Assembly: GCA_041666305.1 (NCBI GenBank)
Contig: JBAYHD010000002.1
Span: 684-64,683, forward strand
From: Minisyncoccota bacterium
GTDB lineage: Bacteria; Patescibacteriota; Minisyncoccia; Phycocordibacterales; Phycocordibacteraceae
DNA: 64,000 nucleotides
Direction of reading: 5' to 3'
Shown: positions 12,529 to 60,806 of the stretch, in pieces
Layout of the letters: the number at the start of each line of letters is the position of its first letter
How positions within the stretch are numbered: the stretch's first letter is position 1
Notes under the pieces: model-generated
Seen by the model: the letters and a program-made list of their open reading frames with translations, nothing else
Database searches by the model: none
What the model was told of the DNA's origin: nothing
Made by a program: the position numbers and the translations under genes

Positions 12529-12786
12529 ATGAAAAGCCTGTTTGCCGAACGTGTCCGAGATATAGTTCGCCAAATCCCGAAAGGGCAAACACTTTCATAT
12601 ATGAGAGTAGCCGCTATTGCTGGCAATCCTGGCGCCGCGCGAGCTGTGGGCACGGTGATGAAAAATAATTTTGACCCGCTGGTGCCGTGCCATCGCGTCG
12701 TCCGCGCTGACGGGAAGGTGGGCGATTATAATCGCGGCGGTGAACGAGCGAAGAAGCGCTTGTTAGAGAAAGAAGGCGCATTATGA
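12529..12786 (+). CDS. MGMT-family protein (methylated-DNA--protein-cysteine methyltransferase DNA-binding domain, PCHRV)
   Basis: PCHRVV active-site motif and YGxIA/NP signature; track ORF 12352 overlaps upstream gene, internal Met 12529 used. Confidence 0.6.
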   Translation: MKSLFAERVRDIVRQIPKGQTLSYMRVAAIAGNPGAARAVGTVMKNNFDPLVPCHRVVRADGKVGDYNRGGERAKKRLLEKEGAL

Positions 12787-13451
12787 ATGTAAAAATAGAT
12801 CCGTCATGGGCGAGGCACTTGAAGGGCGAATTTGAAAAGGCTTATTTTGAAGAGCTGACGAGATTCGTGAAGAATGAATACAAAAACGGCGCCGTGTACC
12901 CAGCGCCGAAGAATATTTTTCGTGCATTCGACCTGTGCCCGTTCGAAAAAGTGAAAGTGGTTATCCTCGGACAGGACCCGTACCACGGCGTTCGTCAGGC
13001 GAACGGCCTCGCGTTCGCCGTGGAGAGCACCGAGAAAATTCCACCGTCGCTTCAAAATATTTTTAAAGAAATTGAGAGCGATCTTCACGGGCCGCTTGTG
13101 CATGCAGACGGCGACCTCTCGCGCTGGGCGAAACAGGGCGTGTTGCTCCTCAATGCAACACTCACCGTGCGAGCCGGCATAGCCGGCTCGCACCAGGAGA
13201 AGGGGTGGGAGCAATTTACCGACGCTGTCATCAAAGCGCTTTCGGAGGAACACGAACATCTCGTTTTTATGCTCTGGGGCAATTATGCGAAGGCGAAGGG
13301 CGCACACATCGACCGCAGTAAGCACCTCGTGCTTGAAGCTCCGCATCCCTCGCCATTCTCCGCCGCCTCCGGCTTTTTCGGCTGTAAGCACTTCTCTAAA
13401 GCAAATGACTACCTCGTCGCTCACAACGAAACCCCGATAGACTGGTTGTGA
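12783..13451 (+). CDS. ung: uracil-DNA glycosylase (family 1)
   Basis: [19 protein letters not shown] motifs; full length 222 aa. Confidence 0.85.
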   Translation: MNVKIDPSWARHLKGEFEKAYFEELTRFVKNEYKNGAVYPAPKNIFRAFDLCPFEKVKVVILGQDPYHGVRQANGLAFAVESTEKIPPSLQNIFKEIESDLHGPLVHADGDLSRWAKQGVLLLNATLTVRAGIAGSHQEKGWEQFTDAVIKALSEEHEHLVFMLWGNYAKAKGAHIDRSKHLVLEAPHPSPFSAASGFFGCKHFSKANDYLVAHNETPIDWL

Positions 13452-14029: not shown

Positions 14030-14374
14030 GACGGAGATTTAACACGATGGGCCGAGCAGGGCGTATTGCTCCTCAATGCCACGCTCACCGTGCGAGCCGG
14101 CATAGCCGGCTCGCACCAGGAGAAGGGGTGGGAACAATTCACCGATGCCGTTATCAAGGCACTCTCAGAAGAGCGCGAGCATCTCGTTTTCATGCTCTGG
14201 GGCAATTATGCGAAGGCGAAGGGCGCACACATCGACCGCAGTAAGCACCTCGTGCTTGAAGCTCCGCACCCCTCGCCATTCTCCGCCGCATCCGGCTTTT
14301 TCGGGTGCAAACATTTCAGCCGTGCGAACGAGTATCTTATTTCCCACAACGAAACCCCCATCGACTGGCTCTAG
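14030..14374 (+). pseudogene. orphan duplicate of the ung 3' half (about 115 codons, no proper start)
   Basis: aligns to ung 13107-13451 at roughly 90% nt identity with mostly synonymous differences (e.g. gacctctcgcgc vs gatttaacacga both DL(S/T)R); opens directly after the stop of the 13493 gene in the same frame. Confidence 0.7.
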
Positions 14375-14417
14375 CTACTTGGAGGCGAGGCCTCCAAGTA
14401 GGCCCCCAAGTAGCTAG
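14375..14417 (+). other. strong hairpin with alternative pairing
   Basis: ctacttggaggc-gag-gcctccaagtag perfect 12-bp stem; downstream ccaagtagctag can pair alternatively with ctagctacttgg (14371-14382). Confidence 0.5.
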
Positions 14418-14495
14418 ATTGATAAGTTCAAGAAGTAGGCGTAAAATCGCGGAGGTTCAAATCGTTGTTTCCATTAACGTTCTTGGGAGTCAGAC

Positions 14496-32556: not shown

Positions 32557-32645
32557 CCGGGAGCATCATACGCTAGACGCGGTAGTATGGGAAACCAACA
32601 AACAAGGTAGGGACTTTTTTGACTATGCATCGAATTTCGGGCATA

Positions 32646-32724
32646 CCCCATATGACAACTTTTATATTGATAACGAAATAATTTTTGCTAGCACGGTTGA
32701 TAAAAGTTGTCATACGGGGCATAG
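32646..32724 (+). promoter_or_regulatory. 18-bp inverted repeat (candidate operator) overlapping a TTGATA...CATAGT promoter upstream of grpE
   Basis: CCCCATATGACAACTTTT (32646-32663) vs AAAAGTTGTCATACGGGG (32702-32719), 17/18 complementary, 38-bp spacer; -35 TTGATA 32696-32701, -10 CATAGT 32719-32724. Confidence 0.4.
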
Positions 32725-35397: not shown

Positions 35398-35733
35398 ATG
35401 TCATATCTGCACGCTCTACCAATTTTGTTGGCCTTGGGAGGATTCACTCTCTTGGCCATTGCGCTAAAAAGAGGAAGAGGCATTCTTTGGCCAATCTTCC
35501 TAGTCGGTCTCGTCGTAGGCGGCGAATTCTTGGTGCTTCATGGGAGTGTTGATCGCCTTCAAGGGATAATCGGAGCTGGCAGTCTTTTGGTTTTCCTGCT
35601 CGCCGGCTTGTTCCTATGTTTCGCCTTCCTGTTTTCAGAGGTGATTCAGTCGAAAGAAGCTGGAGGGGTGGCATCACCTTCATCAAGGATTACCGTTTCG
35701 ACGGCGATAATGGGATATATCGCCAGTCTGTGA
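35398..35733 (+). CDS. small hypothetical membrane protein
   Basis: three hydrophobic helices; aaggagatacc RBS. Confidence 0.4.
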   Translation: MSYLHALPILLALGGFTLLAIALKRGRGILWPIFLVGLVVGGEFLVLHGSVDRLQGIIGAGSLLVFLLAGLFLCFAFLFSEVIQSKEAGGVASPSSRITVSTAIMGYIASL

Positions 35734-35789: not shown

Positions 35790-35799
35790 TCTCGTGCAT

Positions 35800-35835
35800 G
35801 TTCGTTAAGTCCAACGGTCGTGTGACTTAACGAAC
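35800..35835. repeat. conserved hairpin GTTCGTTAAGTC-N12-GACTTAACGAAC with AACGGTCGT loop core (copy B)
   Basis: perfect 12-bp stem; same family as 27602-27637. Confidence 0.55.
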
Positions 35836-35856
35836 ATTATTCATCGTATAACCCAC

Positions 35857-35894
35857 TGTCTCAATTTTTGTCCTATAGGACAAAAATTGAGACA
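35857..35894. promoter_or_regulatory. perfect 17-bp-stem palindrome TGTCTCAATTTTTGTCC-TATA-GGACAAAAATTGAGACA upstream of dnaJ
   Basis: perfect dyad read directly; about 100 nt upstream of the dnaJ promoter. Confidence 0.55.
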
Positions 35895-35994
35895 TCGGCC
35901 TCAGGTGCTATTTCTTTTTGCATACAAAATACAAGAGGTGTATAACCCCGTAGTAGATTTTCGCAATGCGCCGGAGGCGCGGGACGCAGGCCTT

Positions 35995-36021
35995 TTGCGA
36001 AAATTCACTACAGGGTATAAT
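35995..36021 (+). promoter_or_regulatory. dnaJ promoter TTGCGA -15- TATAAT, near-leaderless
   Basis: -10 TATAAT 36016-36021 only 8 nt before ATG 36030; no SD. Confidence 0.4.
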
Positions 36022-36029
36022 CAACACAA

Positions 36030-37139
36030 ATGGCAACAACAAAGGATTATTACAGCGTGCTGGGCGTCGATAAGAAGGCGAGCAAGGACGACATCAAGAA
36101 GGCGTTCCGTAAGCTCGCGCACAAATATCACCCCGACAAGGGCGGCACTGATGAGGCGAAATTCAAGGAGATAACCGAGGCGTACTCGGTGCTCTCCGAT
36201 GACCGTAAGCGCCGTGAATATGATACCTACGGGCAAGCATTTGCGGGCGGGCAACCTGGTTCGGCGCCCCAAGGGGGCCCCTTCGGGGGATTCGACTTCT
36301 CTCAATTCCAACAAGGCTTCCCCCAAGGGGGCCCCTTCGGGGGGCAGGGTGGCGTTGATTTTGATTTTGGTGATATTTTCGGCGACATCTTCGGCGGTCG
36401 CGGGCAACAGCGCACACCGCGCGGCCGCGATATTTCCATCGATTTGGAAGTCTCCTTTAAAGAGGCGGCTCTCGGCACAAGCCGAAGCGTACTCATCGGA
36501 AAGGTCTCCACCTGCTCGCTTTGCCACGGCACGGGAGCGAAGCCGGGCACTGAATTGGAATCCTGCACAACCTGTAACGGAAGCGGCAAAATTCACGAGA
36601 CGCGCAATTCCATACTCGGCCAGTTCAGCTCGGTGCGCGCCTGCACCATTTGTGAAGGCACCGGCAAGGTGCCGAAGGAAAAATGCACGGAGTGCAAAGG
36701 TCACGGCGTTCGCCGCAAGGAGGAAGAACTGAAAATAAATATCCCCGCCGGCGTGGATAACGGTGAAATGATTCGCATGCCGCAAAAGGGCGAGGCAATC
36801 AAAGCTGGCATCGCGGGCGATCTGTACGTGAAGATACACGTGAAGCCGCATGCGATCTTTCGTCGCGACGGAGCGAATTTGATCATGACCCTGCCGGTAA
36901 AATTGACCGATGCACTGCTCGGCACCACTGTTTCAATAGAAAGTTTGGAAGGCAAAACGCTTGAAGTAAAAATCCCGCCGATGAAGCGCGCCGAGGAACT
37001 TCTGCGCGTGGCAGGGAAGGGCATTCCGGCCGAAGGCGGCCGCGGCGACCTCATCATCCGCCTCGAGGCCGCACTTCCGCACAAGCTCTCGAGCAAAGCG
37101 AAGAAGGCTGTTGAAGACTTGAAGAACGAAGGGCTCTAA
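36030..37139 (+). CDS. dnaJ: molecular chaperone DnaJ
   Basis: J domain HPD (KYHPDKG), G/F region, four CxxCxGxG zinc-finger repeats, C-terminal domain. Confidence 0.9.
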
Positions 37140-51555: not shown

Positions 51556-52992
51556 ATGAACATACTCCTTAAAAAAGGAACCGGAGCGAGCGTCCCGAAA
51601 GGGTACGTGCGCATACGGATAACGGAAGAGTCAAAAGGCACGAAGCGTCTCGTGAAAGAGCAGGGGATAGAAACGCTTGAGCTTGGCGCGGGGAAATATG
51701 CAGAAATGAACATGCGCAGGTTCATAGTGCTTTGTCGTTCCCTGGTGCAGTCGGCAAAAAAGAACAAGCTCAAAAAAATCGCAATTCAATTCGATGATAC
51801 GGTGCAACTGTTCAAGAAACTCAAGGGCGTACCGCCAGAAGAACTCATACAACTTGCGGCCGAAAATTTCGAGATGGCGAATTTCGAATTCAATATATTC
51901 AAAACGAAACCAAAAGAAGGCTGGCACGCAGTGGAAGAAATACTTTTATACGGACGTTCATCTGCAGCGCTTGAAAAAGCATTGCGAAAGGGGCAGGAGA
52001 TCGGAAAAGCGGTGAACGCCTGCCGCACGCTCGCAAACACTCCCGGCGGCGACATGACCCCGGCTTTACTCGCAAAATCCGCGAAGAGCGCGATGAAAGG
52101 CCTGCCGGTCAAAGTAACCACCCTCGGCACGAGAGAAATGAAAAAACTCGGTATGGGAGCCCTGCTCGGCGTTGCGAAAGGCTCCACCGAAGCGCCGACG
52201 TTCACCATTTTAGAGTACAAAGGAGGGAAAGGTGCTCCCATTGTGCTTGCGGGAAAGGGCATCACGTTCGATAGTGGAGGGCTCAATTTGAAGCCTTCAA
52301 GCGGAATGTATGAGATGCATATGGATATGTCGGGCGCTGCCGCAGTCATTCATGCGGTAGCACTCGCTGCACGACTGAAACTGAAACGACACGTTATCGG
52401 CCTTATTCCGGCGGCGGAGAATATGCCGGGTAACAATGCCGTCCGCCCGGGCGATGTGTTGAAGTCGCTTTCGGGGAAAACAATTGAAATACTCGACACT
52501 GATGCGGAAGGCAGGCTCATCCTCGCGGACGCGCTCACGTATGCAAAACGATTCAAACCTGCGGTGGTGATCGATGCGGCGACCTTGACCGGAGCAGCGA
52601 TGTCGGCACTCGGACTTCATGCGAGTGCGCTCCTCACGCGCGATGACGCCCTTGCAGAACAGATCTCGCGCGCCGGCGAAGCATCGGGTGATTATGTGTG
52701 GCGATTGCCGCTCTGGGACGAATACGAAGACCGTGTTAAAGGAGAATTCGCCGATATCAAGAATGTCCCCGGCGGTTCCACGAGCCGATACGGCGGTGCG
52801 ATCGACGGCGGGATGTTCCTCTGGCAATTCGCAAAGGAACTTGATTGCCCGTGGGCGCATCTGGATATTGCTCCTCGCATGACTTCCGCGCCGAATGACG
52901 AACTTGCAAAAGGCGCCGCGGGAACGCCGGTGCGACTCCTGATACACTTTATAGAACATGCCCCGTATGATTACTCAACAACAAAGCGATAA
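51556..52992 (+). CDS. pepA: leucyl aminopeptidase (M17)
   Basis: NTPGGDMTP, DTDAEGRL, GAAM motifs. Confidence 0.85.
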   Translation: MNILLKKGTGASVPKGYVRIRITEESKGTKRLVKEQGIETLELGAGKYAEMNMRRFIVLCRSLVQSAKKNKLKKIAIQFDDTVQLFKKLKGVPPEELIQLAAENFEMANFEFNIFKTKPKEGWHAVEEILLYGRSSAALEKALRKGQEIGKAVNACRTLANTPGGDMTPALLAKSAKSAMKGLPVKVTTLGTREMKKLGMGALLGVAKGSTEAPTFTILEYKGGKGAPIVLAGKGITFDSGGLNLKPSSGMYEMHMDMSGAAAVIHAVALAARLKLKRHVIGLIPAAENMPGNNAVRPGDVLKSLSGKTIEILDTDAEGRLILADALTYAKRFKPAVVIDAATLTGAAMSALGLHASALLTRDDALAEQISRAGEASGDYVWRLPLWDEYEDRVKGEFADIKNVPGGSTSRYGGAIDGGMFLWQFAKELDCPWAHLDIAPRMTSAPNDELAKGAAGTPVRLLIHFIEHAPYDYSTTKR

Positions 52993-53048
52993 TATGAGAT
53001 TGTACAGATTACTAGCAACCGCAGTTGAGGCGAATAATCATACGGGGT

Positions 53049-53771
53049 ATGCCGTTCTCCATTAAGACCGACGCATACGAAGGACCGTTCGAGGTTCTGC
53101 TCGACCTCATTGAAGCGCGCAAACTCCTGGTCAACGACCTCACGCTCGCGAATATCACCGAGGATTACATCCAGCACGTGCGTGCGCAGGAAGCATTTCC
53201 GGTCGAAGAAACCGCGAATTTCATACAGATAGCCGCAACGCTTCTTCTCATCAAATCCAAATCGCTCATCCCCGATCTCGCGCTGACCGAGGACGAGAAT
53301 GCGGACGTGGAAGATTTGAAGCGCCGGCTCGCGGCGTACGAAAAAGTGCGCGAAGCGGCGCGCGAACTCTCGCGCATATACGGACGGACGGTAATGGCGG
53401 AAGAAGGTCAGAGGATGCCTGAAGTCGTCTTTGCGCCGTCTAAAGATCTCTCGGTAAAAGCACTCGCCGATGCGCTCGCGCGCGTGCTTGCCGCGCGCGA
53501 GGAGGTGGAAGAACTTCCAGAAGCGCGCGTGAAGCCGCTCGTGACCATTGAAGAAATGATGGATCGACTCGCGAAGCGCGTACAAAGCGCGATGACGCTT
53601 TCCTTCAAAGATTTTGCCGGCGGCCAAAAAGAAAAGATCGAGGTTATTGTCTCTTTCCTGGCTCTTCTAGAACTGGTGAAGCAAGGCGCAGTTGCTGCCG
53701 AACAACGCGATACCTACGGCGACATTCGCATCAGCCACACCGCCTCCACTGTCGTTCCGCGCTATGGATAA
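53049..53771 (+). CDS. scpA: segregation and condensation protein A
   Basis: YEGPFEVLLDLIEARKL N-terminal kleisin motif; start ATG 53049. Confidence 0.8.
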   Translation: MPFSIKTDAYEGPFEVLLDLIEARKLLVNDLTLANITEDYIQHVRAQEAFPVEETANFIQIAATLLLIKSKSLIPDLALTEDENADVEDLKRRLAAYEKVREAARELSRIYGRTVMAEEGQRMPEVVFAPSKDLSVKALADALARVLAAREEVEELPEARVKPLVTIEEMMDRLAKRVQSAMTLSFKDFAGGQKEKIEVIVSFLALLELVKQGAVAAEQRDTYGDIRISHTASTVVPRYG

Positions 53772-58305: not shown

Positions 58306-59445
58306 ATGACCATCGCGTTCACAGGAGGAGGCACCGGCGGGCACTTCTATCCCATCATTGCCATCAGCGAGGCGCTCGGCGATCTCGTACGCGAGAAGCA
58401 TCTTATTGAGCCGAAGCTGTATTATCTTGCGCCGAATTCCTTTGATGAAAAGGCGCTCTTTGAGAACGGCATTGCCTACATCCGCATACCGGCAGGGAAG
58501 ATGCGTCGCTATTTTTCGCTGATGAATATCACTGATTCATTTGTCACTTTTTTCGGAACGATATCGGCACTCGTCACGCTCTACCGCCTTTATCCGGACG
58601 TCGTGGTCTCTAAAGGCGGGTACGGCAGCGTGCCGACCGTGCTTGCGGCTCGCATCCTGCGCATCCCCATCATCATTCACGAATCGGATGCAAAACCGGG
58701 CCGCGCAAATCTGCTTGCCGCCAAATTCGCAACGAAGATAGCCATCTCTTTTGAAAGCGCGGCGGCATTTTTCCCGGAGAACGTTCGTGCCAAAATAGCC
58801 CGCACCGGCATTCCAATACGCAAGGCGCTCATGCGCATTGAGCCCGAAGGTGCGCGGCAGTATCTCGGACTCGAAAAAGATACCCCGACGATCCTTATTC
58901 TCGGCGGTTCTCAAGGCGCGGTGAAAATAAACGAGGTTATTTTGTCGTCCCTTCCGGACCTCGTTTCAAGCGCCAATATCATACATCAAACCGGTCAGGC
59001 GAATATCAAGGACGTCGAGTCGATTTCGCAAGTCATTCTTGCGAAATCCAAGAACGCGGACCGATACCATCCGGTCAATTACCTCACCGAAATTTCGCTC
59101 CAGCGGGCCGCCGGCGTCGCAGACCTCATCATCTCGCGCGCTGGCGCGAACAGTATCGCTGAAATAGGCCTCTGGAAAAAACCGGCCATTCTCGTTCCTA
59201 TTCCGGAATCCATCAGTCATGATCAGCGCACGAACGCCTACAGTTACGCGCGCACCGGAGCCGCCATCGTACTCGAAGAAGGAAATCTGACGCCCCATGT
59301 ACTCGTGTCGGAGGTTCGACGCATTCTCGATGATAAGGCGCTTGCAAAACGCATGGGCACATCTGCCGCAGGATTCACCGATCCGGATGCCGCGCGCATT
59401 CTTGCGAACGAAATATTGCAGATATCGCTCGCGCACGAATCATGA
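58306..59445 (+). CDS. murG: UDP-GlcNAc--MurNAc-pentapeptide-undecaprenol GlcNAc transferase
   Basis: GGGTGGHFYP N-terminal G-loop, GT28 C-terminal domain. Confidence 0.85.
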   Translation: MTIAFTGGGTGGHFYPIIAISEALGDLVREKHLIEPKLYYLAPNSFDEKALFENGIAYIRIPAGKMRRYFSLMNITDSFVTFFGTISALVTLYRLYPDVVVSKGGYGSVPTVLAARILRIPIIIHESDAKPGRANLLAAKFATKIAISFESAAAFFPENVRAKIARTGIPIRKALMRIEPEGARQYLGLEKDTPTILILGGSQGAVKINEVILSSLPDLVSSANIIHQTGQANIKDVESISQVILAKSKNADRYHPVNYLTEISLQRAAGVADLIISRAGANSIAEIGLWKKPAILVPIPESISHDQRTNAYSYARTGAAIVLEEGNLTPHVLVSEVRRILDDKALAKRMGTSAAGFTDPDAARILANEILQISLAHES

Positions 59446-60806
59446 GCACCGTCGTTACTCGTTTCGCTCCTTCGCCAACCGGATACTTACACGCCGGCAA
59501 TTACCGCACTGCCGTATTCGCATATCTTTTCGCGAAGCACGAAGGAGGGAAATTCATTGTGCGGATAGAGGACACTGATGTTGCGCGCTCCAAGCCTGAA
59601 TACGTAGCGAACATTCCCGAAATCCTCAAGTGGCTCCGATTACCGGCTGATGAATCATATCGACAAAGTGAGCATCGGCCACGACATCGAGAATTGCTTG
59701 AAAAACTTATCGCTGAAGATACGGCATATGTCTCAAAAGAAACGCCGCAAGCCCCGGGTGATAGGGAAGAGGTCATTCGTTTTAGGAACCCTGGTGGGAC
59801 CGTTACGTTCACTGATATCATTCGCGGCGATATAACGACCGATGTTACCGACCTCGGCGACTTCATCATTGCTCGTTCTCTCGATGAGCCAGTATTTCAC
59901 TTCGCAGTGGTTGTGGATGATGCTGATGAAGGTGTTACGCATGTCATTCGTGGCGGCGACCATATCTCGAACACTGCGCGCCAAATGCTTATTCAGCGTG
60001 CGCTGGGTCTCCCTCTGCCGCTCTATGCACATCTGCCGCTCATCATGGATAGCACTCACAAGAAGCTTTCAAAGCGTGCGGGTGCAAAATCGTTAGCTGA
60101 CTATCGCGATATGGGAATCTTGCCAGAGGCGCTTCTTAACTATCTCGCGTTCCTTGGCTGGAATCCCGGCGATAATCGCGAGTACATGACGCGAGAAGAA
60201 TTGGTTGGAGCGTTTGATCTCTCGCGTGTTCAGAAAGGAAGCGCCATCTTTGATGAAGTGAAATTGTTGTCGGTGAATCAGCACTGGATGCGCGCCCTTC
60301 CTGACGAAAAATTCCTCGCCCATGTGTGGGACTTACGAAGTCCCACATCTGATGTGGGACTTCGTAAGTCCCACAATTCCGAAATAATCACGAAAATCGT
60401 GCCGCTTCTGAAAGAACGCGCGCAGACGTTCGAAGAGGTGCGCGAGATGCTTGCCCGCGAGCTTTCCTTCTTTTTTTCAGACCCAAAAATTGACCTACAG
60501 CAGCTTGTCTTGAAGGAGCCTGCAGACCGTCCGGGAATGACCAAAATGGCTCTAGAAAGCCTGTTTGAGGCCATAAACAGCCTTCCGAAGGGCGTTTCTA
60601 GCGAGGCGGTAAAAGAGGCCCTTATGCCGCTTGCCGATGCCGAGGAGGCAAAAGGGAAGGGAGGCCGTGGAGCCGTGTTATGGCCATTGCGCTACGCCCT
60701 TTCTGGAGAAGAGCGGTCGCCAGACCCATTCACTATCATAAGCATACTTGGAACGAAAGATTCCATTTCTCGACTTCAGGCCGCTCTTGGTATACTTAAA
60801 GGATGA
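59442..60806 (+). CDS. gltX: glutamyl-tRNA synthetase carrying an in-frame 51-bp double palindrome
   Basis: PSPTGYLHAGN, KLSKR motifs; palindromic segment 60325-60375 encodes WDLRSPTSDVGLRKSH. Confidence 0.9.
   Translation: MSTVVTRFAPSPTGYLHAGNYRTAVFAYLFAKHEGGKFIVRIEDTDVARSKPEYVANIPEILKWLRLPADESYRQSEHRPRHRELLEKLIAEDTAYVSKETPQAPGDREEVIRFRNPGGTVTFTDIIRGDITTDVTDLGDFIIARSLDEPVFHFAVVVDDADEGVTHVIRGGDHISNTARQMLIQRALGLPLPLYAHLPLIMDSTHKKLSKRAGAKSLADYRDMGILPEALLNYLAFLGWNPGDNREYMTREELVGAFDLSRVQKGSAIFDEVKLLSVNQHWMRALPDEKFLAHVWDLRSPTSDVGLRKSHNSEIITKIVPLLKERAQTFEEVREMLARELSFFFSDPKIDLQQLVLKEPADRPGMTKMALESLFEAINSLPKGVSSEAVKEALMPLADAEEAKGKGGRGAVLWPLRYALSGEERSPDPFTIISILGTKDSISRLQAALGILKG
60325..60375. repeat. 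in-frame double palindrome: two 23-bp perfect palindromes TGTGGGACTT(ACG/CGT)AAGTCCCACA separated by 5 nt
   Basis: each unit 9-bp stem + 3-nt centre; whole 51-bp segment nearly self-complementary so both strands encode similar peptides (track ORF 60278 minus). Confidence 0.6.

What the first reader, a model, noticed from the sequence alone, without database searches (positions are those of the whole stretch)
60325..60375. In-frame 51-bp double palindrome embedded in glutamyl-tRNA synthetase
Inside gltX, two 23-bp perfect palindromes TGTGGGACTTACGAAGTCCCACA and TGTGGGACTTCGTAAGTCCCACA are separated by TCTGA. The second is the first with its centre inverted. The 51-bp block is a multiple of three and encodes WDLRSPTSDVGLRKSH. 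Because the block is nearly self-complementary, the opposite strand encodes an almost identical peptide (ELWDLRSPTSDVGLRKSH in minus ORF 60278-60574). This looks like a small palindromic insertion tolerated in a linker of an essential gene, similar to in-frame REP/MITE or minimal homing-site insertions. It could also form a strong paired hairpin in the mRNA.
Basis: seen in the sequence. Interest (0 to 1): 0.65.

Follow-up and report, generated by a model that had tools for sequence, protein, structure and literature searches.

The report
In-frame REP palindrome doublet in gltX
The 51-base palindrome inside the glutamyl-tRNA synthetase gene is real: it is an inverted pair of copies of a tiny mobile hairpin repeat (a REP element, linked to a tyrosine transposase) that is scattered through the housekeeping genes of related ultra-small bacteria and sits here in a disordered surface loop of the enzyme.

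Summary
Window 60325-60375 is a perfect 51-nt palindrome made of two 23-nt perfect palindromes. It lies in frame in gltX of a Patescibacteria (Kaiserbacteria/Paceibacterota) MAG and is identical in independent assemblies.

It is not unique to gltX. The 21-nt core GTGGGACTT-ACG/CGT-AAGTCCCAC (25 nt with AT..AT) occurs at 78 distinct metagenomic sites.
- About half lie in frame inside housekeeping genes (uvrA, secA, valS, alaS, pheT, murD, mnmA and others).
- Eleven loci found only by the palindrome encode a RAYT-like Y1/HUH transposase with copies of it at or near the gene.

A syntenic relative carries the element in alaS and mnmA, where this window has empty sites. One clean filled/empty comparison in pheT shows a 27-nt (9-codon) insertion.

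At the same gltX site, other species carry none, single or double hairpins whose stems differ by compensatory changes. The encoded residues 296-311 coincide with a low-confidence loop (297-311) between the catalytic and anticodon-binding domains in the AlphaFold model.

Verdict: a REP doublet of a REP/RAYT system, inserted in frame. Intragenic REPs are already described, so this is a new member of a known kind. Transposition itself is inferred. Neither a RAYT nor further copies were seen in the 71 kb available of this genome.

The parts
59442..60806 (+). Host gene gltX (glutamate--tRNA ligase, 454 aa).
   Evidence: ORF. Pfam tRNA-synt_1c (residues 107-275) and Anticodon_2 (residues 311-449). 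100% identical to P0001, named 'glutamate--tRNA ligase family protein [Candidatus Paceibacterota bacterium]'.
60325..60375 (.). REP doublet (REPIN-like): a perfect 51-nt palindrome with 25-nt arms and centre T60350.
   Evidence: Fold -46.4 kcal/mol as RNA and -29.5 kcal/mol as DNA, z about -9. Identical in L168 and L169.
60326..60346 (.). REP unit 1, core GTGGGACTT-ACG-AAGTCCCAC. It is read in the phase that gives W-D-L-R-S-P-T.
   Evidence: The same 21-mer is found at 78 distinct metagenomic sites.
60347..60353 (.). Spacer ATCTGAT between the two units. The AT on each side belongs to the 25-nt REP consensus.
   Evidence: The same ATCTGAT/ATCAGAT spacer occurs in the gltX doublets of L002, L009, L026 and L049 and in the uvrA doublet of L118.
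60354..60374 (.). REP unit 2, core GTGGGACTT-CGT-AAGTCCCAC (inverted centre). It is read in the phase that gives V-G-L-R-K-S-H.
   Evidence: VGL[T/R]KSH is the commonest reading of intragenic copies, 28 of 36.
60324..60377 (+). The 18 codons V295-N312 (VWDLRSPTSDVGLRKSHN) that span the doublet; 54 nt equals two 27-nt units. Residues 296-311 are the REP-coded loop.
   Evidence: Codon layout. The 27-nt unit size comes from the filled/empty pheT comparison. The AlphaFold2 model has pLDDT<50 at residues 297-311, between helices 288-296 and 309-326.

Best explanation
The block is an inverted doublet of a REP-type mini-palindrome. The unit is AT-GTGGGACTT-ACG-AAGTCCCAC-AT, carrying a degenerate GTRG 'tag'. 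It belongs to a REP/RAYT system that is widespread in Patescibacteria.

Shown here:
- The unit is a dispersed repeat.
- Copies lie at or near the genes of a divergent Y1/HUH tyrosine transposase of the RAYT type: one just outside at least one end of the gene, and one inside it in 10 of the 14 loci.
- Copies are present or absent at orthologous sites between related genomes.
- Many copies lie in frame inside housekeeping genes.
- This copy occupies a variable, predicted-disordered inter-domain loop of GluRS.

Inferred from what is established for E. coli TnpA-REP and IS200/IS605 enzymes:
- The RAYT recognises the hairpin on single-stranded DNA and cuts and joins it, seeding new copies.
- Copies survive in these gene-dense genomes only where they are harmless.

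Three properties would make a copy harmless. The unit adds 27 nt (9 codons), so it does not shift the frame. It has no stop codon in 5 of 6 frames. It lands in a permissive surface loop.

The doublet is two units head to head, so DNA and mRNA can form either one 24-bp hairpin or two 10-bp hairpins. No gltX-specific function is required.
For: Dispersal:
- A metagenome scan with the centre left free gave 85 loci. About 80 of the ~100 matches have centre ACG or CGT, where chance would give about 3%.
- Position -1 is T in 75-77 of 77 copies and position -2 is A in 78-79%.
- Several contigs carry 2-3 copies.

Link to a transposase:
- tblastn with the L148 ORF finds homologues in 11 of the 85 loci retrieved only by the palindrome.
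- In L148, L126, L105, L132, L157, L160, L095, L135 and L123 a copy lies just outside at least one end of the gene. L132, L148 and L160 have copies at both ends and one in frame inside.
- The motifs GWCLMxNHYHLL (HUH) and YIHxNP (Tyr) are conserved.
- The only NCBIfam hit is NF047646, REP-associated tyrosine transposase.
- Pfam Y1_Tnp scores above its cut-off for two homologues.
- The best PDB match of the profile is 4ER8, E. coli TnpA-REP, with both motifs aligned.
- More than 7000 homologues exist; the named ones are from Kaiserbacteria, Paceibacterota, Parcubacteria or Minisyncoccota.
- Three further RAYT loci each carry their own variant palindrome in the arrangement 5' flank, internal, 3' flank.

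Mobility:
- Contig Ga0155055_115 is syntenic with this window, with 73-77% amino-acid identity in the best-matching genes. It has the element in alaS and mnmA, where the window has none.
- In pheT, three orthologues are filled and one is empty, differing by exactly 9 codons. A second pheT loop is filled in two genomes in different reading phases.

Tolerance:
- 36 of 78 sites are confidently intragenic, with phases 28:0:8.
- The hosts are housekeeping genes.
- The GltX model places the peptide in a pLDDT<50 loop.

The gltX site:
- Orthologues carry none, single or double hairpins.
- 87% of cells are paired, and 26 show changes on both sides against 8.5 +/- 2.5 in shuffles, 0 of 500 reaching the observed value.

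Precedent: in-frame intragenic GTAG/CGTC REPs, including dimers, GTGG variants of the tag, tRNA-synthetase and uvrA hosts, and insertion within target palindromes, are described in PMC3733652.
Against: - In the 64-kb window plus about 6.8 kb further downstream from L168 there is no second copy and no RAYT gene. Membership of an active REP population in this particular genome is therefore extrapolated from relatives.
- RAYT catalysis on this hairpin is untested. REP transposition has not been directly shown for any RAYT, to my knowledge.
- The RAYT assignments are weak by sequence: NCBIfam scores are well below the equivalog cut-off, two homologues fall just below the Pfam cut-off, and the PDB match has E = 0.029.
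- In the sampled loci single units dominate and doublets are rare. The doublet may not be the mobile unit, unlike in classical REPINs.
- The 27-nt unit size rests on one clean filled/empty comparison.
- Net length differences in gltX (+11 codons), alaS (+10) and the second pheT loop do not fit a simple insertion of 27 or 54 nt.
- Occupancy of the same gltX site across species, with compensatory stem changes, could also mean that the hairpin is selected there.
Confidence: 0.85

Rival explanations
1. The hairpin is a cis-acting mRNA or DNA structure selected in gltX itself. It might pause the ribosome at the boundary between the catalytic and anticodon-binding domains, or act as a regulatory or processing site. 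The repeat family would then be secondary.
For: - A very stable predicted RNA hairpin, -46.4 kcal/mol, z = -8.6.
- It sits exactly at the domain junction.
- Hairpins occupy the same gltX site in many species, with compensatory changes on both sides.
- In L009 each unit is imperfect but the doublet is a perfect palindrome.
Against: - The identical sequence lies in at least 36 other unrelated genes and about 28 probably intergenic sites, and next to RAYT genes.
- Many of the 120 close GltX orthologues have no hairpin at the site, so it is dispensable.
- Covariation of stems is also expected for REP variants that co-evolve with their transposases.
Confidence: 0.07
2. The palindrome arose locally by replication template switching (correction of a quasi-palindrome, or inverted duplication), without any mobile element.
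For: - The second unit is the exact reverse complement of the first, as an inverted duplication would give.
- Palindromes around dispersed copies extend outward more often than chance: 38 of 67 against an expected 25%.
- The same genome has another perfect 27-nt palindrome inside a conserved UNG motif.
Against: - Local origin cannot produce the same 21-mer at 78 unrelated sites in genomes of 42-60% GC.
- It cannot explain the linkage to RAYT genes.
- Template switching may still explain how a single unit became a doublet and why the arms stay perfect.
Confidence: 0.03
3. It is a DDE-type MITE or the footprint or recognition site of a homing endonuclease.
For: It is small, has inverted-repeat symmetry and shows presence/absence between orthologues.
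Against: - There is no direct target-site duplication; the flanking bases tend to be complementary to each other, not repeated.
- The unit is only 25-27 nt with a 3-nt loop.
- The only gene repeatedly linked to it is a Y1/HUH transposase.
- No endonuclease, intein or intron features are present in gltX.
Confidence: 0.03
4. It is an assembly or amplification artefact, such as a chimeric fold-back.
For: Perfect palindromes can be created by MDA chimeras or assembler errors (general knowledge, not tested here).
Against: - The sequence is identical in independent assemblies from different data sets.
- The reading frame is preserved.
- The same element occurs in many public assemblies.
Confidence: 0.01

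Closest known systems
GTAG-type REP elements with RAYT (REPtrons), including intragenic REPs (Di Nocera et al. 2013, PMC3733652; Nunvar 2010 and Ton-Hoang 2012 from memory)
   Same: - A short palindromic unit with a terminal GTRG tag. GTGG is a documented variant.
- Occurrence as singletons and closely spaced inverted dimers.
- Copies next to, and overlapping, a Y1/HUH transposase gene.
- In-frame copies in uvrA, tRNA-synthetase and other housekeeping genes.
- Insertion inside other palindromes.
   Different: - The host phylum is Patescibacteria. No paper in the searched library links RAYTs to it.
- The stem is perfect with a fixed 3-nt ACG/CGT loop.
- Roughly half of the sampled copies are intragenic rather than a small minority.
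- The RAYT gene itself carries a cognate unit in frame in 10 of the 14 RAYT loci examined on DNA. The peptide pattern suggests the same for most of 120 homologues.
REPINs (REP doublets forming hairpins; Bertels & Rainey 2011, PMC3116915, listed)
   Same: Two REP units in inverted orientation with a conserved short spacer, together forming one long hairpin. They are associated with RAYTs.
   Different: - Here the spacer is only 5-7 nt.
- Each unit is itself a perfect palindrome.
- In the sampled loci doublets are rare relative to singletons, so the doublet is probably not the main replicating unit.
Rickettsia palindromic elements (RPE; Ogata et al. 2000, from memory; cited in PMC3733652)
   Same: Palindromic repeats inserted in frame into ORFs of housekeeping genes in a small, gene-dense genome. 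The proteins apparently stay functional.
   Different: - RPE-1 is about 100-150 bp.
- RPE-4 and RPE-6 carry a CGTC tag and have no associated transposase (Table 1 of PMC3733652).
- Here the unit is 25-27 nt, GTRG-tagged and linked to a RAYT.
Double-hairpin elements of fungal mitochondria and coding palindromes of Nematomorpha mitochondria (PMC6649704, listed; DHEs from memory)
   Same: Short hairpin or double-hairpin repeats, or perfect inverted repeats, embedded in frame in protein-coding genes.
   Different: They are organellar, have no known transposase and belong to unrelated sequence families. This is a resemblance only and was not tested here.

Membership tests
REP element (GTAG type) | Short (20-40 bp) palindromic unit able to form a stem-loop | tested here: met
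   The unit is 21-25 nt with a 9-11 bp perfect stem and a 3-nt loop.
REP element (GTAG type) | Terminal GTAG tetranucleotide or a documented degenerate form | tested here: met
   GTGG...CCAC in this family. GTAG...CTAC in the gltX hairpins of L002, L009, L026, L029 and L011. GTRG and GTGG variants are documented in PMC3733652.
REP element (GTAG type) | Many dispersed copies within a genome | tested here: inconclusive
   Met across metagenomes: 78 distinct sites, and 10 exact copies on the Ga0155055 contigs (loci L083, L104, L114, L150, L152, L157), one of which is syntenic with this window. In this genome only the gltX doublet is seen in about 71 kb. The rest of the genome was not available.
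REP element (GTAG type) | Extragenic location | tested here: not met
   This copy and 36 of 78 sampled copies are inside ORFs. Intragenic REPs are nevertheless documented as a minority class, so this does not exclude membership.
REP element (GTAG type) | Association with a RAYT gene flanked by the same repeat (REPtron) | tested here: met
   11 loci with the same core and 3 loci with variant cores. Not seen in this window.
REPIN | Two REPs in inverted orientation forming one long hairpin | tested here: met
   25-nt arms, 100% complementary. The spacer is conserved in five species and in uvrA of L118.
REPIN | The doublet is the predominant, replicating form of the family | tested here: not met
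   Among about 120 copies in 585 kb of loci only a handful are doublets.
RAYT (Y1/HUH transposase) for the linked gene | HUH motif and catalytic tyrosine in the IS200-like fold | tested here: met
   Invariant H70/H72 and Y130 (numbering of the first sequence of A2). They align to the HUH and Tyr motifs of 4ER8. The fold itself was not modelled.
RAYT (Y1/HUH transposase) for the linked gene | Match to curated family models | tested here: inconclusive
   Pfam Y1_Tnp scores 38.1 and 32.5 bits (cut-off 23) for two homologues and 21 bits for two others. NCBIfam REP_Tyr_transpos scores 33-52 bits against a cut-off of 80. Many database homologues carry a precomputed PF01797 hit.
RAYT (Y1/HUH transposase) for the linked gene | Cleaves and joins its cognate REP on single-stranded DNA | not testable with these tools
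   Needs biochemistry.
Rickettsia palindromic elements | In-frame insertion in ORFs of conserved proteins | tested here: met
Rickettsia palindromic elements | RPE sequence families (about 100-150 bp for RPE-1, or CGTC-tagged for RPE-4 and RPE-6) | tested here: not met
   The unit is 25-27 nt with a GTRG tag. RPE features are taken from PMC3733652.
MITE (DDE transposon derivative) | Terminal inverted repeats with a direct target-site duplication | tested here: not met
   Flanks are not directly repeated. They are complementary beyond the unit in 38 of 67 copies.

The most novel reading that the evidence does not exclude
Patescibacteria may harbour a large, previously undescribed REP/RAYT clade adapted to gene-dense genomes. 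On this reading, three things hold:
- Its 27-nt unit is frame-neutral and stop-free, so it colonises surface loops of essential proteins (aminoacyl-tRNA synthetases, SecA, UvrA/C, MurD and others) and becomes a recurrent source of loop insertions.
- Each RAYT gene embeds its own cognate hairpin in frame, between the EFND and HUH motifs, besides the flanking copies. That suggests autoregulation or 'self-marking' of the transposase.
- The recurrent occupancy of the gltX inter-domain loop reflects targeted re-insertion into an existing hairpin rather than simple inheritance.
Probability: 0.45. Interest if true: 0.6.

Novelty: new member of a known kind. Interest (0 to 1): 0.45.

Why it matters
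- It explains an odd feature of an essential gene as ordinary mobile DNA, and warns annotators that such loop peptides in CPR proteins are repeat-encoded rather than functional motifs.
- It points to REP/RAYT systems in Patescibacteria, whose genomes are usually regarded as streamlined and repeat-poor.
- These hairpins give a natural map of insertion-tolerant loops in conserved proteins.
- They may be useful strain markers in metagenomes.
- The in-frame hairpin inside the transposase gene is a concrete, testable lead on how RAYTs are regulated.

Tried and rejected
- One search used a wrong pattern (4 N instead of 3) and found nothing. It was repeated correctly.
- Look-ups of the window's first and last ORFs, meant to extend the contig, failed, probably because the gene caller used different starts. 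Only P0001 worked, adding about 6.8 kb.
- The source genome is not among the GTDB representatives; the best match is 78%. Its contig was not hit in the metagenome scan. Genome-wide copy number and a RAYT could therefore not be checked.
- A single-sequence PDB search with the RAYT gave only noise. The profile search was needed.
- A neighbour-joining tree of 120 GltX proteins was too star-like to decide between one ancient insertion and repeated insertions at the gltX site.
- Two viral-contig hits have centre AGA and identical flanks to two of the metagenome hits (L113, L137). I treat them as unrelated to the family.
- Exact-sequence and topic searches of the literature found no description of this element or of RAYTs in Patescibacteria.
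- Rfam finds only two tRNAs in the window and nothing at gltX.
- The idea that the 'empty' orthologue peptide (H/R)G(D/N)F..PD is itself a decayed REP was considered. It was dropped because those sequences show no palindromy in DNA.
Full report
**1. The observation**

Two 23-nt perfect palindromes, TGTGGGACTTACGAAGTCCCACA and TGTGGGACTTCGTAAGTCCCACA, are separated by TCTGA. Because the second is the reverse complement of the first, the whole 51 nt is one perfect palindrome, with 25-nt arms and centre T60350.

The block lies in frame in a 454-aa ORF, 59442-60806. That ORF has the class I Glu/Gln tRNA-synthetase catalytic domain and the anticodon-binding domain. It is 100% identical to a protein annotated as glutamate--tRNA ligase of a Candidatus Paceibacterota MAG.

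The matching peptide on the minus strand is an automatic consequence of palindromy.

Shuffles never give such a match: 0 of 100 against 2 observed, allowing up to 3 mismatches. The predicted fold is extreme: -46.4 kcal/mol as RNA (z = -8.6) and -29.5 kcal/mol as DNA (z = -9.2).

Two independent public assemblies carry the identical 51-mer in an identical gene, so it is not an assembly artefact. There is no other copy in the window or in the ~6.8 kb that L168 adds downstream.

**2. It is an indel relative to orthologues, at a hot spot**

I aligned 120 GltX orthologues of 72-83% identity. The stretch between NQHWMR.L..--F and LLKER is hypervariable in length. Many orthologues have a short form such as F-I-A-R-G-N-F-S-G-Y-D-A-E-K-L-R-K. 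Others carry 4 to about 11 extra residues.

DNA from 80 representative genomes shows that the extra residues are encoded by perfect palindromes that differ between species.
- Doublets of 43-45 nt: L002 GGACGTACCACGTCC-TACATCTGATGTA-GGACGTGGTACGTCC, and L009, L026 and L049.
- Single hairpins: L029 ATGTAGGACGTACGACGTCCTACAT, L011, L007, L004, L023, L061, L010 and L033.
- All doublets share the spacer A-TC(T/A)GA-T and the same reading phase: (W/L)D...PTSDVG...S(H/Y).

Eighteen hairpins were put in register. They were selected by the GGAC...GTCC core, so that core is invariant by construction. On these, 87% of cells pair. There are 26 cells with changes on both sides, against 8.5 +/- 2.5 in shuffles (0 of 500 reach the observed value). 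Two stem positions show three or four different Watson-Crick pairs.

**3. The same hairpin is a dispersed repeat**

A scan of public metagenome contigs used GTGGGACTTNNNAAGTCCCAC, with the three central bases left free. It returned 85 loci.
- About 80 of the ~100 matches have centre ACG or CGT, or the one-step variants CGG, CCG and GCG. Chance would give ACG or CGT in about 3% of hits.
- In the 77 non-redundant copies with enough flanking sequence, position -1 is T in 75-77 and position -2 is A in 78-79%, with the mirror image on the other side.
- The unit is therefore the 25-mer ATGTGGGACTTACGAAGTCCCACAT. A sub-family ATT...AAT occurs in contigs of 42-45% GC.
- Flanks and host genes are unrelated between sites. 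Several contigs hold two or three copies.
- One contig (L118 and L124) has the centre CGG/CCG in all three of its copies.
- The palindrome continues into the variable flanks more often than chance: 38 of 67 against 25% expected, by up to 7 extra pairs. PMC3733652 describes the same for REPs that sit inside 'target palindromes'.

**4. Where the copies sit**

Of 78 distinct sites, 36 lie inside open frames of at least 150 codons with at least 30 codons on each side. About 28 are probably intergenic.

The hosts are housekeeping genes: uvrA, uvrC, secA, valS, alaS, pheT, murD, tgt, tsaD, mnmA, mutY, dprA, a phosphoglucomutase and others.

The reading phase is strongly non-random. Twenty-eight copies read (N/D/H/Y)-VGL(T/R)KSH-(I/M), eight read MWD(L/F)(R/V)SPT and none use the third phase. 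The unit has no stop codon in five of its six frames.

In gltX the first unit is in the MWD...SPT phase and the second in the VGL.KSH phase.

**5. Presence/absence at orthologous sites**

Contig Ga0155055_115 (loci L104 and L150) is syntenic with this window, at 73-77% amino-acid identity in the best-matching genes.
- It has the element in alaS (…EKM-SSDVGLTKSHMS-GEEAF…), where the window reads …EKMGNNIDAF….
- It has the element in mnmA as well, where the window again lacks it.

In pheT, three genomes read E-(V/I)-x-N/H-VGL(R/T)KSH-(I/M/S)-D and a fourth reads E-A-T-D. The difference is exactly nine codons, that is, 27 nt. A second pheT loop is filled in two genomes in different phases and is empty in a third. 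That points to independent insertions into the same permissive loop.

These comparisons show gain or loss of the unit. Only the first pheT site gives a clean size.

**6. The linked gene**

One 2.6-kb contig (L148) has three copies of the palindrome around and inside an ORF. That ORF carries the motifs GWCLMGNHYHLLL and YIHLNP. tblastn with it finds homologues in 11 of the 85 loci that were retrieved only by the palindrome.
- In nine of them a unit lies just outside the start and/or the stop of the gene. L148, L132 and L160 have units at both ends.
- Another unit lies in frame inside the gene in L148, L126, L105, L132, L157, L160 and L095.
- In L098 and L138 the nearest unit lies about 700 nt from the gene.

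The family assignments are consistent but weak.
- The only NCBIfam hit is NF047646, 'REP-associated tyrosine transposase', with E from 5e-8 to 5e-14 but below the equivalog cut-off.
- Pfam Y1_Tnp scores above its cut-off for two homologues and just below for two.
- A profile of eight sequences finds E. coli TnpA-REP (4ER8) as the best solved structure, at a weak E = 0.029, with the HUH and Tyr motifs aligned.

The profile retrieves more than 7000 database proteins. Where a source names them, the organism is Kaiserbacteria, Paceibacterota, Parcubacteria, 'Patescibacteria group' or Minisyncoccota.

In nearly all of the best 120, the segment between EFND and HGWCLM holds a variable peptide of the kinds the hairpins encode: MWDLRSPT, MNDFVSRS, MFELRTRT, YRDLRNPD, DVGLTKSH, NVGPRRSH, DVGFTKPN.

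I checked three of these on DNA. Each gene has its own perfect palindrome three times, at the 5' flank, internally and at the 3' flank:
- ATATCGGGATTT-CGT-AAATCCCGATAT
- ATGAACGACTT-CGT-AAGTCGTTCAT
- ATGTTCGAGTT-CGT/ACG-AACTCGAACAT

So the stem varies with the transposase, while the ACG/CGT loop and the TT/AA apical pairs stay fixed.

**7. Where the peptide lies in GluRS**

An AlphaFold2 model built on 41 sequences (mean pLDDT 77.5) has three segments with pLDDT below 50. One of them is 297-311, between helices 288-296 and 309-326. The REP-coded residues are 296-311, and Pfam places the start of the anticodon-binding domain at 311.

**8. Interpretation**

The block is a REP doublet of a REP/RAYT system.

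Shown:
- the repeat family;
- its linkage to a RAYT-like gene;
- presence/absence at orthologous sites;
- in-frame residence in many conserved genes;
- the loop position in GluRS.

Inferred:
- the RAYT mobilises the hairpin on single-stranded DNA, by analogy with E. coli TnpA-REP and IS200/IS605 transposases (my knowledge of that literature, not tested here);
- selection keeps only copies that are frame-neutral, stop-free and located in permissive loops.

Unresolved:
- Whether the gltX site was hit once and the hairpin then changed by compensatory substitutions, or was re-occupied by each lineage's current REP variant. The GltX tree is too flat to tell.
- Whether this genome still has a RAYT and other copies.

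Local template switching may explain how a single unit became an inverted doublet and why the arms are perfect. It cannot explain the dispersed family.

**9. Comparison with what is known**

Di Nocera et al. 2013 (PMC3733652) describe the following:
- GTAG- and CGTC-tagged REPs, with degenerate tags including GTGG;
- closely spaced inverted dimers;
- REPs within target palindromes;
- REPtrons;
- REPs located in frame inside uvrA, uvrB, dnaE, tRNA-synthetase and other genes, more than half of them as dimers.

Rickettsia RPEs are the classic case of in-frame palindromic repeats.

The finding is therefore a new member of a known kind. The following appear not to be described in the searched library:
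- the Patescibacterial host range;
- the high share of intragenic copies;
- the in-frame cognate hairpin inside the RAYT gene.

**10. Verdict**

The mechanism is assigned with good confidence at the level of element class. Interest is moderate.

Noticed in passing
L148 1766-2458; L132 6513-7145; L160 344-946; L170 10001-10654; L171 9370-10020; L172 8038-8700: The Patescibacterial RAYT-like genes carry their own cognate palindrome in frame inside the coding sequence, between the EFND and HGWCLMxNHYH motifs, in addition to copies abutting start and stop. The stem differs between RAYT lineages while the ACG/CGT loop stays fixed. Peptide patterns suggest the same for most of 120 database homologues.
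   Followed up: partly
window 13167-13193 and 14090-14116: The perfect 27-nt palindrome GTGCGAGCCGGCATAGCCGGCTCGCAC occurs twice. It encodes VRAGIAGSH in what I recognise from memory (not tested with a family search) as a conserved motif of uracil-DNA glycosylase. The second copy lies in a 102-aa near-identical duplicate of the C-terminal part of the first gene (12783-13451 and 14066-14374). A perfect palindrome over such a motif is unexpected.
   Followed up: partly
window 14375-14401 (and 14370-14418): The intergenic perfect palindrome CTACTTGGAGGCGAGGCCTCCAAGTAG (CTAC...GTAG ends) lies directly after the stop of the UNG fragment. Its core resembles the doublet GGAGGCGAAGCCTCC-CTT-GGAGGCTTCGCCTCC inside gltX of L063 (1976-2008) and the gltX-site hairpin of L010. 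It may belong to a second REP family.
   Followed up: partly
window 32643-32722 and 52957-53051 (weaker at 35945-36016): Two 80-95-nt elements are bounded by inverted repeats CAT(A/G)CCCCGTATGA...TCATACGGGG(T/C)ATG and look MITE-like. No copy was found in the other loci fetched.
   Followed up: partly
window 35798-36016: An intergenic cluster of palindromes includes a perfect 38-nt one (TGTCTCAATTTTTGTCCTATAGGACAAAAATTGAGACA, 35857-35894). It lies between ORFs 35398-35733 and 36030-37139. Its function is unknown.
   Followed up: no
L170 6868-7539 and 10001-10654; L172 8038-8700: In two different genomes the RAYT gene sits beside the same neighbours (gap, rpiB, rpe, transketolase genes), which suggests vertical inheritance at a fixed locus. 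L170 has a second Y1_Tnp gene 2.5 kb away.
   Followed up: no
L063 32-58 and 736-762: A more distant RAYT homologue lies directly upstream of gltX in another Patescibacterium. It is bracketed by a 27-nt direct repeat, AATTTACAGATGTCAGACATCCGTCAA, that contains a small palindrome.
   Followed up: no
L150 1091-1140: Next to the mnmA copy, the right half of the unit is partly repeated in direct orientation (ACGAAGTCCCACATG then CCGAAGTCCCGCATG). L119, L135 and L158 show similar partial duplications. These hint at slippage around the hairpins.
   Followed up: no
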